Made by a program: the position numbers and the translations under genes. The notes under the pieces were generated by a model, which did no database searches, was not told the DNA's origin, and saw nothing but the letters and a program-made list of their open reading frames with translations. Source: Escherichia phage VEc20. From it: 64,000 nucleotides of DNA. How positions within the stretch are numbered: the first letter of the stretch is position 1; each line of letters starts with the position of its first letter. Below are positions 11,518 through 60,472 of this stretch, in pieces. The DNA lies in the sequence record MN022785.1; one strand, written 5' to 3'.

Positions 11518-12120
11518 TTATAGATTAAATCCTTCAAAATCAAGAGTATAGATAGTATATGTTGAATACTTTTTGTACTCATATCTATCTGCAATTCTAA
11601 ATACACTTCCAGCTGGTATCATTACTTCTTGTTCATCTGAAACTAATTCCATATTACGATAACGATGACTATCCGGAAACTTAAAGTTTGGATTGTATTC
11701 TTTACAGCGTAGAGCTTTTATAGCATACTCCTGGAAATTGAATACCATAGGAGCTTTGAATTCAAAAATAACTTGTGTGTTATACTCTAAACCGGAAGCA
11801 AAATGTAGAGCTATATTTTTATCATATGAAGCTGATACTACTTTATCAAATATAATAGTATCAATTCCTTGATTTAACACCTGCTTAGTCTCAGCTGGAA
11901 CACCTCTCCAAAGAGGTTTATCGTTTGGAACCAAACGAGATTTGATTATTTCATTTAACCAAGAATGATCGTCTGGTTTATTAGTAATACAATGAATTAA
12001 AAGTTCAATTTCAGATAAATTAAACCCTTCAGAAAGTAATTCTTCACGAATAGAAGCACGCACCGATGCATCCATTGATTTTATTTTAAAATCTTTTAGT
12101 TGCATTACTGAGTATTTCAT
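11518..12120 (-). CDS. modA: ADP-ribosyltransferase ModA
   Basis: 200-aa ORF, size and position match; tandem with 207-aa ORF. Confidence 0.7.
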   Translation of the reverse strand: MKYSVMQLKDFKIKSMDASVRASIREELLSEGFNLSEIELLIHCITNKPDDHSWLNEIIKSRLVPNDKPLWRGVPAETKQVLNQGIDTIIFDKVVSASYDKNIALHFASGLEYNTQVIFEFKAPMVFNFQEYAIKALRCKEYNPNFKFPDSHRYRNMELVSDEQEVMIPAGSVFRIADRYEYKKYSTYTIYTLDFEGFNL

Positions 12121-12740
12121 TCAACTACCTCAATATCATAAACTTTAAATGTTCCAAATGAATCGTGTAATTTTTCTTTTGAAATAGAAGTTATTCTATA
12201 CTTTCCAATTGGAATCATCCATTCTTGTTCACGCACAATCATCATTAAGTTATCAGTACGCTCTGAATCTAGCCCATCAGTATCTTCATACGTGTACTTA
12301 AACTCAGTATTAGGAGAAGAAAGTATAATATCGCTGATATGGTCAGAATAATTAAAAGCTTTATCAGTTTTTAAGCGAAATATTATTTCAGTGAAATATT
12401 CAGCATAAGAAAAAGAACACGCTGTATGCAAACTAGTAGTAAATGAATCTACTCTGTTCGTTGAAAACACTTCTCCAACTTGTAAATCTTTAATGAGTTC
12501 TTTTGTCGATTTTGATATACCACGATATAGCTGATAAGGCGATTTAGTTAAATGCTTTTTAACGATTTTATTCAACTGCTGATGAAGAGCTTCATTCTTT
12601 TTGGCTTCCATACATTGCCAAAGAACTGACTGCTCAAAGTCAGTAAATTTTTCACAGACTTTTTTATACATATCATATTGAAAATCGACACTTTCAGCTT
12701 TTATAGATAACTGTTCAACATCTGCGAGATTAATAATCAT
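12117..12740 (-). CDS. modB: ADP-ribosyltransferase ModB
   Basis: 207-aa ORF, size and position match T4 modB. Confidence 0.7.
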   Translation of the reverse strand: MIINLADVEQLSIKAESVDFQYDMYKKVCEKFTDFEQSVLWQCMEAKKNEALHQQLNKIVKKHLTKSPYQLYRGISKSTKELIKDLQVGEVFSTNRVDSFTTSLHTACSFSYAEYFTEIIFRLKTDKAFNYSDHISDIILSSPNTEFKYTYEDTDGLDSERTDNLMMIVREQEWMIPIGKYRITSISKEKLHDSFGTFKVYDIEVVE

Positions 12741-17582: not shown

Positions 17583-17939
17583 TTAACCTCTATTCATAAA
17601 AGCATTAAAAATTTGGTCATCAATAGATGGTGCAGTAATATTTTCTGCATCATTTAGCAAATCATTAATTTCATCAGATAGCATAACACATGTACCTTTA
17701 TTTCCTGTAATTGTTACTGCGCAATTACGAACGTTTTCTTTATTAAATTTTAGGTTAATATTTTCGTAATGAAAATCCTTTAATGCTGAATATATTTTTA
17801 AAATAAAATTGTCTTTTACTACAATAAACCCAACCTCACTATTAAAACGTGGTTCATGGAAACTGTAATAAACCTTTTCATCTATAAAATCGTATGAAAT
17901 TTTTTCCATTTTTAAATATGAAAATTCAGAACTATACAT
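17583..17939 (-). CDS. hypothetical protein (61.2 position)
   Basis: 118-aa ORF. Confidence 0.55.
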   Translation of the reverse strand: MYSSEFSYLKMEKISYDFIDEKVYYSFHEPRFNSEVGFIVVKDNFILKIYSALKDFHYENINLKFNKENVRNCAVTITGNKGTCVMLSDEINDLLNDAENITAPSIDDQIFNAFMNRG

Positions 17940-57241: not shown

Positions 57242-57823
57242 CTAACCGAGCTTTTTAGTTAATTCATTCCAATGTTTTCTACACAAAGAAACATAAATTT
57301 CATCACCAATACAGATTTGATTACCTTCTTTAACGGGTGTTCCATCTTCCATTAATCGAGCTGTCATAATAGCTTTTTTACCACAATGACAAACTGCCTT
57401 TAGTTCAATAAGTTTATCTGCAATCGCTAAAAGTTCTTTAGAACCTTCAAACAATTTTCCAGCGAAATCAGTCCTTAATCCATAAGCCATAACAGGAACA
57501 TTATATGTATCAACAATTCGACTTAATTGATGCACTTGTTCAGTTTTTAAAAACTGGGCTTCATCTACAAATACGCAATGAATATCTTTTTGTGCTTCAG
57601 CCCATTTATAGAACTCGAAAATATCCATATCATCTGTAATAATATTCGCTTCCTGTTTAATTCCAATGCGAGAAACAACTTCACAGACAGAATCGCGAGT
57701 ATCAATAGCGGGTTTAAGAACTAATACACTCATTCCACGTTCTTTATAATTATGTGCGGCAGTCAAAAGAGAAGCAGATTTTCCAGCATTCATTGCTGCA
57801 TAAGTAAAAATTAAACTCGCCAT
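57242..57823 (-). CDS. tk: thymidine kinase
   Basis: 193-aa ORF; P-loop AMNAGKS and C-terminal zinc-binding cysteines. Confidence 0.9.
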   Translation of the reverse strand: MASLIFTYAAMNAGKSASLLTAAHNYKERGMSVLVLKPAIDTRDSVCEVVSRIGIKQEANIITDDMDIFEFYKWAEAQKDIHCVFVDEAQFLKTEQVHQLSRIVDTYNVPVMAYGLRTDFAGKLFEGSKELLAIADKLIELKAVCHCGKKAIMTARLMEDGTPVKEGNQICIGDEIYVSLCRKHWNELTKKLG

Positions 57824-58397: not shown

Positions 58398-58615
58398 GTC
58401 ACCTTCAAGCAGTATTCTTCTACATGCTGTTTACGACCTTTCTTATCAATAAAGGTATATTCAACGAATGTTCCAATGTAGTCTTTATCTACATCATGCG
58501 GACTATTAATTGGACATTTAGTACGGCAAATGCGTTCCCATTGACGAATAATTACTGCCTTATTCTTTGGGTCATATGGATGTGGATAATGTATATTCAT
58601 AATAACGGTTCCCAA
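58388..58615 (-). CDS. hypothetical protein
   Basis: 75-aa ORF. Confidence 0.5.
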   Translation of the reverse strand: MGTVIMNIHYPHPYDPKNKAVIIRQWERICRTKCPINSPHDVDKDYIGTFVEYTFIDKKGRKQHVEEYCLKVTWL

Positions 58616-59064
58616 TCAACAATCACAATTTCTAATTTAGAGGAATATGTATCTAAAATCCCCTCAATAATATCCCAGTTCCCTTTACCTATGCCTGCAC
58701 CAATCCTAGGCATATAGATTGTAGGTTTAATCAGTTTATTTTCACCAAACTCATTTAATTCTAACATACAATTCATTAAAGCGGAATACTCAAAATTTGG
58801 CCCTGGTTGAAATTGAGTATAAAGATTAAAGCAGTAAGCTTTATGAGTCCTAAAGTATTTTTCATAAACTGAGTAAGAACCAAGTTTAGTTACATCACCC
58901 CATTCAGTCTGTAATTTATCAGCTTCCAAAATTTTAGGGAAAGCTTTGGTTAATTGACCCGCTACGCCTGAACCCATAGTATGAAAACAATTACATCCAT
59001 GCGCAATATTTTTACCTTCAGCGAAAAGGGCGACAATATCGCCCTTGATATATTTTACAATCAT
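58597..59064 (-). CDS. macro-domain protein (ADP-ribose binding/hydrolase-like)
   Basis: 155-aa ORF; motifs HGCNCFHTMGSGVAG and PRIGAGIGKG typical of macrodomains. Confidence 0.6.
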   Translation of the reverse strand: MIVKYIKGDIVALFAEGKNIAHGCNCFHTMGSGVAGQLTKAFPKILEADKLQTEWGDVTKLGSYSVYEKYFRTHKAYCFNLYTQFQPGPNFEYSALMNCMLELNEFGENKLIKPTIYMPRIGAGIGKGNWDIIEGILDTYSSKLEIVIVDWEPLL

Positions 59065-59408
59065 CTAGTACTCAATCCTCGATTATAAGAATCTACCAAA
59101 CGGTCAACCATTGAATGACAAGCGGCTTTATCTTTCTCCTCCGCAACTGAACATTCTAAGGTATTCCACTTTTTAGCATATCGTTTTAATAATGTATCGT
59201 TTTTGTATCTGCTTGATTTATCTCTTTCTCCGTCTTTATATGCATATATTAATTTCTGTGCAAATTCAGCTTGGCATGCTTTATTTTTCCCACAATAATC
59301 TGCCGCAGTGCGGTTTACATATTCTCTAATTTCAGTATATGATGTATCTGCTGACGCAGAAGCAGAAAATGAAATTAATCCTATACATAAAACCAAAATT
59401 TTAGTCAT
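59061..59408 (-). CDS. secreted protein (vs position)
   Basis: 115-aa ORF with cleavable signal peptide. Confidence 0.5.
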   Translation of the reverse strand: MTKILVLCIGLISFSASASADTSYTEIREYVNRTAADYCGKNKACQAEFAQKLIYAYKDGERDKSSRYKNDTLLKRYAKKWNTLECSVAEEKDKAACHSMVDRLVDSYNRGLSTR

Positions 59409-59946
59409 TTACTATTTCCAAAAGTTTATTATTTTTAAGGTAATTAGCCTTTTCTAGGACTTCAGAAGCATATTTAGAACCTGCTTTAACATTCCATCCC
59501 GAATTATAAGAGGATATTGCTTTTCTTATATCGCCCTTATGTATATTTAACCAATAAGAAAGTTCAATGTACGCCCAGGAAGCTGAATTGGATCGTTTAT
59601 TCAACATTCTTTTTATTTCAGCATCGGTCATATTATAACCAAGTTCCTTAACTCTTGCTCGCATAGTAGGCAAATAATTTTGGAACATTCCATAAGCGTG
59701 ATGCTTTGGTTTAGGTTTTAAATTAACTCCGCCAGAGCTTTCTTGCCATAAAATAGCAGCCATTATATGACCTAATCCGCTCTTGTGGATATTTTTGTGT
59801 GTTTTATATTTTCCATCCTTAGAAAATTGTTCCCCGAATTGATACGCGTAACGCATGTTATCGAGTTGGACATTACTGAAAGTATGCTCGGAGCTATGTG
59901 CCATCATTGAAATGGCCAATAGACCAGCGAGTAGTGCTTTTCTCAT
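59401..59946 (-). CDS. secreted lytic-transglycosylase-like protein
   Basis: 181-aa ORF; signal peptide; QESSGG...YGMFQ resembles SLT catalytic motif. Confidence 0.5.
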   Translation of the reverse strand: MRKALLAGLLAISMMAHSSEHTFSNVQLDNMRYAYQFGEQFSKDGKYKTHKNIHKSGLGHIMAAILWQESSGGVNLKPKPKHHAYGMFQNYLPTMRARVKELGYNMTDAEIKRMLNKRSNSASWAYIELSYWLNIHKGDIRKAISSYNSGWNVKAGSKYASEVLEKANYLKNNKLLEIVND

Positions 59947-59953
59947 GCTTACC

Positions 59954-60415
59954 TCATTGAGTTTTAATTACTGCTTTAGAAGCCTTTCCTGGTAAACGAC
60001 GACTATTGATAATTGCCATCCTGCACTGAAGTGACGGGTCTTTGAACTTCGCATTAGGTTTACAAACTGTAAATCCAAGCCAAAGATTTCCATCTGTGAT
60101 TTCTAAACGTCCAGGACGATATTCAACCCCATCAATAAAATCCTCGTCAATATCAGGACGCGGAGGCATACTCAGGAATTCATTAACTTCTAAAACATGG
60201 TCTTTTATTTTATGGAATAATTCAAAAACGTATGTCTCATCAATCTCCCGTTGAATTGCGCGATCAAGAAGATGTTGAGAATATTTTAGATGAAACGATG
60301 AGACTCCTGCTGCTTTTGATGCCTCACGAATCTCATTGTTAATTTGACGAAACTCCGACTCAAAGTGACGACGAAGCTTATTTCGACGGATAAAAACTTC
60401 TGTATTGATAGTCAT
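59954..60415 (-). CDS. regB: RegB endoribonuclease
   Basis: 153-aa ORF; size and position match. Confidence 0.8.
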   Translation of the reverse strand: MTINTEVFIRRNKLRRHFESEFRQINNEIREASKAAGVSSFHLKYSQHLLDRAIQREIDETYVFELFHKIKDHVLEVNEFLSMPPRPDIDEDFIDGVEYRPGRLEITDGNLWLGFTVCKPNAKFKDPSLQCRMAIINSRRLPGKASKAVIKTQ

Positions 60416-60442: not shown

Positions 60443-60472
60443 ATTATACCACAGTCAAGAGGAAAAGTAAAC
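60443..60472 (-). promoter_or_regulatory. T4 early-type promoter upstream of regB (GTTTAC, 18 nt, TGGTATAAT)
   Basis: perfect extended -10. Confidence 0.55.

What the first reader, a model, noticed from the sequence alone, without database searches (positions are those of the whole stretch)
58597..59064. Macro-domain protein in the tk-regB region
The 155-aa ORF carries macrodomain motifs (GCNCFHTMGSGVAG, PRIGAGIGKG). The same phage encodes ADP-ribosyltransferases ModA/ModB, so this protein could reverse or read ADP-ribosylation, or counter host ADP-ribosylating defences such as DarT-type toxins.
Basis: inference. Interest (0 to 1): 0.5.

Follow-up and report, generated by a model that had tools for sequence, protein, structure and literature searches.

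The report
T4 Tk.4/AdfM anti-DarT2 macrodomain

Summary
The 155-aa ORF at 58597-59064 (minus strand) is real. Both quoted motifs are present, and it lies between tk and regB in a T4-like (Tequatrovirus) genome. Its protein is 100% identical to T4 ORF 60.5 (Tk.4); all 5 nucleotide differences are synonymous.

A 2025 bioRxiv preprint (HIDEN-SEQ) found tk.4 to be the only T4 gene conditionally essential against DarTG2. A clean knockout sensitised T4 to DarTG2, and the authors renamed the gene adfM. The ModA/ModB partnership is not.

What I add: the family does not have the DarG/TARG1 catalytic lysine. It has an invariant Gln84 (118/118 homologues) and Asn25 (117/118). This is the Asn27/Gln85 pair of Streptomyces SCO6735, which does remove DarT's thymidine-ADP-ribose. 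Unlike SCO6735, it has a short mobile loop.

Biochemistry on Tk.4 itself is still missing.

Verdict: already known; low interest.

The parts
58597..59064 (-). tk.4 / adfM coding sequence: 155 aa, 17.5 kDa, pI 5.9. A stand-alone macrodomain.
58957..58998 (-). Loop 1 motif G23-CNCFHTMGSGVA-G36. It contains invariant Asn25 (nt 58990-58992) and the G31-x-G33 ligand-binding loop.
   Evidence: Asn25 is kept in 117/118 homologues and Gly33 in 118/118. Asn25 aligns with SCO6735 Asn27 (hhalign), whose N27S mutant almost completely loses activity (PMC9411070).
58813..58821 (-). Y82-T83-Q84 at the end of strand 75-84. Gln84 occupies the position of the catalytic Lys of TARG1 (K84) and DarG (K80), and of Gln85 in SCO6735.
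   Evidence: Gln84 is kept in 118/118 homologues. The profile alignment places it opposite TARG1 K and BT1257 Q, and hhalign places it opposite SCO6735 Q85. The K84=K80=Q85 equivalence and the dead Q85A mutant come from PMC9411070.
58681..58710 (-). Loop 2 motif P119-RIGAGIGK-G128, the diphosphate-binding loop. Gly126 sits where TARG1 has catalytic Asp125.
   Evidence: P119, I121, G122 and G124 are invariant. Position 126 is Ala or Gly in all 118 homologues, against Asp in TARG1.
59076..59080 (-). GAGGA Shine-Dalgarno-like element upstream of the ATG. The vs stop codon overlaps the tk.4 start (ATGA), and the tk.4 stop overlaps the start of the next gene (ATGA).
   Evidence: Read directly from the sequence. 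A ribosome-binding site is annotated at the same place in T4 record X04567.
60443..60471 (-). Early-promoter-like site (TTTACT, 17-nt spacer, TG, TATAAT) upstream of regB. It is the likely start of the regB-vs.1-vs-tk.4-tk.3-...-tk transcription unit (inferred).
   Evidence: Consensus scan, 10 of 12 matches with an extended -10. The same site is annotated as a T4 early promoter in the close relative ASO78A. No transcript data were examined.

Best explanation
The ORF is the T4-type gene tk.4 (adfM). It encodes a stand-alone macrodomain, probably made early in infection from the regB-tk transcription unit.

The macrodomain neutralises the host DarTG2 toxin-antitoxin defence. DarT2 attaches ADP-ribose to thymidine in TNTC motifs of single-stranded DNA and so blocks phage DNA replication. 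Tk.4 most likely binds the ADP-ribose moiety in the cleft formed by loop 1 (residues 23-36) and loop 2 (119-128) and hydrolyses the thymidine-ribose bond, restoring the DNA.

Its active site is not the lysine type of DarG, TARG1 or PhiKZ AdfM. It is the Asn/Gln type of Streptomyces SCO6735. Invariant Gln84, held by invariant Asn25, would position the distal ribose for water-mediated cleavage.

Status of each step:
- Shown here: the gene, the fold, the structural class and the active-site residues.
- Shown in the literature: the anti-DarTG2 phenotype, for the identical T4 protein.
- Inferred: the hydrolytic step and its chemistry.
For: - Identity: the protein is 100% identical to T4 Tk.4. All 5 nucleotide differences are synonymous.
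- Genetics: tk.4 was the only significant HIDEN-SEQ hit on a DarTG2 host, and a clean knockout was sensitised. T4 lacking adfA and adfN stays resistant to DarTG2, so another factor was expected (PMC11825919).
- Active site: Gln84 in 118/118 and Asn25 in 117/118 homologues. These align with SCO6735 Gln85 and Asn27. SCO6735 removes DarT-made thymidine-ADP-ribose in vitro and rescues cells from DarT, and its Q85A and N27S mutants lose activity (PMC9411070).
- Precedent: a different phage macrodomain, PhiKZ gp104, has been shown biochemically to do this job (PMC13309987).
Against: - No biochemical assay of Tk.4 was found in the searched literature. The preprint infers hydrolysis only from the fold match.
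- Gln at this position also occurs in the ALC1 macrodomain (PMC9411070), which is known as a poly(ADP-ribose) binder (general knowledge). Gln alone therefore does not prove catalysis.
- Tk.4 lacks the long, lysine-bearing mobile loop that is proposed to help SCO6735 hold DNA, and it is mildly acidic (pI 5.9).
- T4 DNA carries glucosyl-hydroxymethylcytosine, so the real substrate motif in infected cells is untested.
- The key genetic evidence is a preprint.
Confidence: 0.75

Rival explanations
1. Tk.4 protects against DarTG2 without catalysis. It would bind and inhibit DarT2 directly, or bind and mask ADP-ribosylated DNA.
For: Catalytically dead SCO6735 Q85A, DarG K80A and TARG1 K84A all inhibit DarT in vitro by interaction, and SCO6735 does so most strongly (PMC9411070). 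The other anti-DarT factors AdfA and AdfB are reported or proposed to act through direct interaction with the toxin (PMC11825919; PMC11481870). The Gln-type ALC1 macrodomain is a reader (and general knowledge).
Against: Tk.4 is a bare 155-aa macrodomain without the C-terminal DarT-binding domain of DarG. The residues needed for SCO6735 catalysis, Asn and Gln, are invariant across homologues down to about 35% identity. A toxin-specific binding surface would be expected to vary between phages that meet different DarT2 proteins.
Confidence: 0.12
2. Tk.4 processes small ADP-ribose derivatives rather than DNA adducts. Candidates are ADP-ribose-1''-phosphate (the source of the 'phosphatase' database name), O-acetyl-ADP-ribose, or NAD-derived immune signals.
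Against: These names are inherited from generic macrodomain activities and have not been tested. Poa1p has Ser where the family has invariant Gln84 (alignment). The only phenotype reported for tk.4 in the preprint is against a DNA-ADP-ribosylating system. Such activities could coexist as side reactions.
Confidence: 0.08
3. Tk.4 reverses or reads the ADP-ribosylation (or RNAylation) written by the phage's own Alt, ModA and ModB enzymes.
For: ModA and ModB are encoded in the same window (11518-12740). tk.4 lies downstream of an early-promoter-like site.
Against: The Tk.4 family is found in 2,750 phage records including Pseudomonas, Vibrio, Acinetobacter and Aeromonas phages, whereas ModB relatives are found in 1,010, almost all enterobacterial T4-like phages. 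Alt and Mod enzymes modify arginine, a linkage not known to be cleaved by TARG1-class macrodomains (general knowledge). The preprint calls tk.4 conditionally essential, with reads reduced specifically with DarTG2.
Confidence: 0.05

Closest known systems
T4 Tk.4 = AdfM (anti-DarT factor Macrodomain), bioRxiv 10.1101/2025.11.20.689424
   Same: The amino-acid sequence is identical (155 of 155), the genomic position is the same (between vs and tk.3 in the tk-regB region), and the operon layout is the same.
   Different: Nothing at the protein level. The window comes from a different T4-like isolate, with 5 synonymous nucleotide differences in this gene. The preprint gives genetics and a fold match only, without catalytic residues or biochemistry.
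Streptomyces coelicolor SCO6735 (PDB 5E3B) and Bacteroides BT1257 (2FG1/2AFC), the Gln-type ALC1-like macrodomains
   Different: The mobile loop after the Gln is 5-6 residues shorter in Tk.4 and lacks the lysines (K89 and K94 by the paper's numbering) proposed to hold DNA. Gly23 replaces Val25/Ile. Sequence identity is only 21-29%. Tk.4 is phage-encoded, acidic, and used for counter-defence rather than host genome protection.
DarG (DarG2) antitoxin macrodomain (PDB 5M31/5M3E/5M3I, 7OMU)
   Different: The catalytic Lys80 is replaced by Gln. There is no C-terminal DarT-binding domain and no adjacent darT gene. Identity is 18-23%.
PhiKZ gp104, also named AdfM (PMC13309987)
   Same: A phage stand-alone macrodomain that counters DarTG2. 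De-ADP-ribosylation of thymidine-ADP-ribose DNA has been shown biochemically for it.
   Different: It is only about 20% identical to Tk.4 (BLASTP E=0.005; hhalign probability 96.4%). It is reported as Lys-type (N23/K78) like DarG, is expressed late, and is imported into the phage nucleus. It looks like an independent recruitment that received the same name.
Human TARG1/OARD1 (PDB 4J5S)
   Same: It is the top Foldseek match (E=1.6e-9), has the same short mobile loop length, and also removes thymidine-ADP-ribose.
   Different: The TARG1 catalytic dyad Lys84/Asp125 corresponds to Gln84/Gly126 in Tk.4.

Membership tests
Macrodomain (Pfam PF01661) | Sequence score above the Pfam gathering threshold | tested here: met
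   27.7 bits against a cut-off of 22, E=2.9e-6, covering positions 2-113 of the 118-position model.
Macrodomain (Pfam PF01661) | Alpha/beta macro fold with the GxG loop and the P-x-I-G-x-G diphosphate loop lining the cleft | tested here: met
Macrodomain (Pfam PF01661) | Binds ADP-ribose | not testable with these tools
   This needs a binding assay or a co-crystal structure.
ALC1/TARG1-like macrodomain class (TARG1, DarG, SCO6735, Poa1p) | Closest structural and sequence neighbours are members of this class, separated from the MacroD, viral and PARG classes | tested here: met
T4 Tk.4 / AdfM | Orthology: same sequence and same locus as T4 tk.4 | tested here: met
   100% identity to T4 ORF 60.5 in X04567. 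The gene is flanked by vs and tk.3 as in T4 and T2 records.
T4 Tk.4 / AdfM | Protects the phage from DarTG2 | not testable with these tools
   Reported for the identical T4 protein by transposon sequencing and a clean knockout (preprint).
DarG2-type antitoxin | Catalytic lysine (T. aquaticus DarG K80 = TARG1 K84) | tested here: not met
   The aligned position is Gln84, invariant in 118/118 homologues. The K80=K84=Q85 equivalence is from PMC9411070.
DarG2-type antitoxin | C-terminal DarT-binding domain and an adjacent darT gene | tested here: not met
   The protein is 155 aa and the macro fold fills it. Its neighbours are vs and tk.3. Two relatives deposited in MAGs lie in T4-like phage contexts without a DarT gene.
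SCO6735/BT1257 subclass | Gln in place of the catalytic Lys, locked by a conserved Asn (Q85/N27) | tested here: met
   hhalign probability 98.6% with Q84=Q85 and N25=N27. The multiple alignment agrees.
SCO6735/BT1257 subclass | Mobile loop about 5 residues longer than in DarG/TARG1, carrying lysines | tested here: not met
   The Tk.4 loop (Q84-FQPGPN-F91) has the same length as in TARG1. It is 5-6 residues shorter than in SCO6735 and BT1257 and carries no Lys.
SCO6735/BT1257 subclass | Val25 (or Ile), whose backbone carbonyl positions the proposed catalytic water | tested here: inconclusive
   The aligned residue is Gly23 (117/118 homologues). Because the proposed role is played by the backbone, the side-chain change neither supports nor excludes it.
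TARG1 | Lys84/Asp125 catalytic dyad | tested here: not met
   Gln84 and Gly126 occupy these positions. Position 126 is Ala or Gly throughout the family.
Poa1p-type ADP-ribose-1''-phosphate phosphatase ('phosphatase' annotation) | Phosphatase activity on ADP-ribose-1''-phosphate | not testable with these tools

The most novel reading that the evidence does not exclude
Tk.4/AdfM may represent a third active-site solution among thymidine-ADP-ribose erasers: Asn/Gln chemistry like SCO6735, but on the short-loop scaffold of TARG1 and DarG. Like SCO6735 and TARG1, it might also act on protein (Glu/Asp-linked) or RNA ADP-ribosylation. It would then be a broader eraser that shields T4 from several ADP-ribosylating defences, or that tunes the phage's own ADP-ribosylation programme, and not only an anti-DarT2 factor.
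Probability: 0.15. Interest if true: 0.5.

Novelty: already known. Interest (0 to 1): 0.2.

Why it matters
The gene shows how T-even phages stack specific erasers against DNA ADP-ribosylation: AdfN (NADAR) against the DarT1 guanosine adduct and AdfM (macrodomain) against the DarT2 thymidine adduct. That point has already been made in the literature.

Two things remain open and testable. The first is the enzymology of the T4 protein. The second is the observation here that it uses the Asn/Gln (SCO6735-type) site rather than the DarG lysine. This affects which point mutants are the right catalytic-dead controls (N25A and Q84A, not a lysine). It also affects the use of one name, AdfM, for two proteins that share about 20% identity and differ at the catalytic position.

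A practical point for annotation: the widespread 'phosphatase' label on this family in RefSeq and PHROGs is inherited and probably misleading.

Tried and rejected
- **Chance ORF or chance motif match.** Rejected by the Pfam score, PHROG match, structure prediction and fold searches, and by synonymous-only divergence from T4.
- **DarG-type lysine mechanism.** Rejected by the profile alignments.
- **Full membership of the SCO6735 subclass.** Rejected because the long mobile loop is absent.
- **Functional partner of ModA/ModB.** Tested by distribution (2,750 against 1,010 phage records) and not supported.
- **Cellular origin next to a DarT gene.** Two homologues labelled as bacterial MAG proteins turned out to lie on T4-like phage contigs with no DarT gene. 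This is too small a sample to settle the origin.
- **A dedicated promoter just upstream of tk.4.** There is a perfect TATAAT 17-22 nt upstream of the ATG, but the only TTGACC lies 14 nt from it and no MotA box sits at the right spacing (read). The consensus scan lists no minus-strand site there. I left this as unproven.
- **Pairwise alignments around the catalytic position.** The phmmer alignment to BT1257 and the hhalign and BLASTP alignments to PhiKZ gp104 misplace or gap out the region around Gln84. For these I relied on the profile and multiple alignments, and for PhiKZ on the paper's own K78 assignment.
- **Other literature.** The CmdTAC and RNA-ADP-ribose reversal papers contain nothing on Tk.4.

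Full report
**Observation**

The ORF exists exactly as described: 58597..59064 on the minus strand, ATG start, 155 aa. The quoted motifs are residues 23-36 (GCNCFHTMGSGVAG) and 119-128 (PRIGAGIGKG).

The gene lies between tk (57242-57823; Pfam TK, 6.3e-61) and regB (59954-60415; Pfam REGB_T4, 1.4e-68). It is packed head to tail with its neighbours. The vs stop overlaps its start (ATGA), and its own stop overlaps the start of the next gene (ATGA).

The window is a Tequatrovirus. The 3.3-kb region is 98-99% identical to many T4-like phages. ORFs of 200 and 207 aa at 11518-12120 and 12117-12740 match the genes annotated as ADP-ribosylases ModA and ModB in relatives.

**Identity**

The protein is 100% identical to T4 ORF 60.5 in record X04567 (H16). 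This is the gene called tk.4 in T2 and other T-even records. The window's DNA differs from T4's at 5 of 468 positions, all third-codon and synonymous. It is therefore a real gene under purifying selection.

tblastn finds relatives in 2,750 of 50,697 phage records, well beyond the T-even group. These include Klebsiella, Salmonella, Pseudomonas, Vibrio, Acinetobacter and Aeromonas phages.

**Fold**

- Pfam Macro (PF01661) scores 27.7 bits against a gathering cut-off of 22.
- With a 67-sequence alignment, AlphaFold2 gives pLDDT 95.3 and pTM 0.90.
- The best Foldseek matches in the PDB are TARG1 (E=1.6e-9), Poa1p, BT1257 and DarG.

The protein therefore belongs to the ALC1/TARG1-like class.

**What is already known**

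A bioRxiv preprint of November 2025 (10.1101/2025.11.20.689424) ran a saturated T4 transposon library on a DarTG2-expressing host. [quoted passage not shown] A clean knockout sensitised T4 to DarTG2.

The authors noted structural similarity to the M. tuberculosis DarG macrodomain and renamed the gene adfM. They stated that enzymatic removal of ADP-ribose 'seems likely'. They reported no biochemistry and no catalytic-residue analysis.

This fits earlier work. T4 lacking both adfA and adfN (gene 30.3, a NADAR enzyme specific for the DarT1 guanosine adduct) remained resistant to DarTG2, so a further factor was predicted (PMC11825919). An unrelated-in-sequence phage macrodomain, PhiKZ gp104, was independently given the same name. 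It has been shown to remove thymidine-ADP-ribose from DNA (PMC13309987).

**What I add: the active-site type**

In TARG1 the catalytic dyad is Lys84/Asp125. In DarG only the lysine (K80) is kept. In Streptomyces SCO6735 the equivalent residue is Gln85, held by Asn27. SCO6735 nevertheless removes DarT-made thymidine-ADP-ribose efficiently and rescues cells from DarT. Its Q85A mutant is dead and its N27S mutant is nearly dead (PMC9411070).

The Tk.4 family aligns as follows:
- A profile of the family places its invariant Gln84 opposite TARG1 Lys84 and opposite the Gln of BT1257. It places Gly126 opposite TARG1 Asp125.
- I recovered the SCO6735 sequence from a PDB search. Its numbering reproduces the paper's V25, N27, L29, Q85, G87 and K89.
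- hhalign of the family against SCO6735 gives 98.6% probability, with Q84=Q85, N25=N27 and G23=V25.
- In a MAFFT alignment of 118 homologues plus the three reference proteins, position 84 is Gln in 118/118, position 25 is Asn in 117/118, and position 126 is Ala or Gly in all.

So Tk.4 is not a lysine-type DarG mimic. It carries the SCO6735-type Asn/Gln pair.

It is also not a plain SCO6735 homologue. The mobile loop after Gln84 is 5-6 residues shorter, the same length as in TARG1. It lacks the lysines proposed to hold DNA, and the protein is mildly acidic (pI 5.9).

PhiKZ gp104 is only about 20% identical to Tk.4 (hhalign probability 96.4%). It is reported to be Lys-type (K78). One name therefore covers two proteins that differ at the catalytic position and probably arose as independent recruitments.

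**Mechanism**

Most likely, Tk.4 is made early. An early-promoter-like site lies upstream of regB at 60471-60443, and the same site is annotated as a T4 early promoter in a close relative.

Tk.4 would bind ADP-ribose attached by DarT2 to thymidine in single-stranded phage DNA. It would then hydrolyse the glycosidic bond by the water-mediated, Gln-positioned mechanism proposed for SCO6735. This would restore replication.

The fold, class and residues are shown here. The phenotype is shown in the preprint. The hydrolysis itself is inferred.

**Rivals**

1. *Non-catalytic inhibition of DarT2.* Dead mutants of SCO6735, DarG and TARG1 inhibit DarT in vitro. However, invariance of the catalytic residues across distant phages argues for chemistry rather than a toxin-specific surface.
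2. *Small-molecule processing.* Databases label the family 'phosphatase' or 'O-acetyl-ADP-ribose deacetylase'. The labels are inherited from generic macrodomain activities. Poa1p has Ser at the Gln84 position.
3. *Eraser or reader for ModA/ModB/Alt marks.* ModB relatives occur in 1,010 phage records against 2,750 for the macrodomain. Arginine-linked ADP-ribose is not a known substrate of this class (general knowledge). The preprint describes tk.4 as conditionally essential, depleted specifically with DarTG2.

**Origin**

Two homologues deposited as bacterial MAG proteins lie on T4-like phage contigs carrying Rnl1, PNK, dCMP deaminase and a Dda-like helicase, with no DarT gene nearby. As sampled here, the family looks phage-borne and orphan. 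The sample is small.

**Verdict**

The finding is already known: T4 tk.4 = adfM. The remaining open points are the enzymology of the T4 protein and the Gln-type, short-loop active site described here. Interest is low.

Noticed in passing
window 59061-59408 (-) and 59401-59946 (-): The product annotated as 'valyl-tRNA synthetase modifier' (Vs, 115 aa) begins with a Sec-type signal-peptide-like sequence, MTKILVLCIGLISFSASASA followed by DTS. The upstream Vs.1 (SLT transglycosylase domain, Pfam) also begins with a signal-peptide-like sequence. Export looks odd for a protein said to modify a cytoplasmic tRNA synthetase. The HIDEN-SEQ preprint reports vs as the most strongly depleted gene in minimal medium.
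   Followed up: no
window 59026-59046: A G+C-rich hairpin with an 8-bp stem (AAGGGCGAC AATAT CGCCCTT) lies inside codons 7-13 of tk.4. The terminator scan flagged it on the plus (antisense) strand. Its function is unknown; it could simply reflect the coding sequence.
   Followed up: no
window 17583-17939 (-): The slot between 61.1 and sp, where the close relative ASO78A has ASO78A_035 ('RB32ORF033c'), holds a 118-aa ORF of the same size. From memory, this is where T4 carries 61.2, named adfA in the anti-DarT literature. Whether this phage has a functional AdfA equivalent was not checked.
   Followed up: partly
L005 1927-2397 and L006 6001-6480: Two Tk.4 homologues deposited as proteins of bacterial MAGs (Bacilli, Culicoidibacterales) sit on 40-44 kb contigs. 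Their neighbouring genes are typical of T4-like phages: Rnl1, PNK, dCMP deaminase, a Dda-like helicase and a T4 spanin. They are probably phage contigs binned into MAGs.
   Followed up: partly
L007 12518-13006 (PhiKZ gp104): The name AdfM is used in the literature for two proteins that share only about 20% identity and differ at the catalytic position: PhiKZ gp104 (K78) and T4 Tk.4 (Q84).
   Followed up: yes
window 58597-59064; database annotations: RefSeq and PHROG label this family 'phosphatase', JGI labels it 'O-acetyl-ADP-ribose deacetylase (regulator of RNase III)', and one record calls the neighbouring vs gene 'valyl-tRNA synthetase'. These are inherited names that do not match the reported anti-DarTG2 function.
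   Followed up: yes
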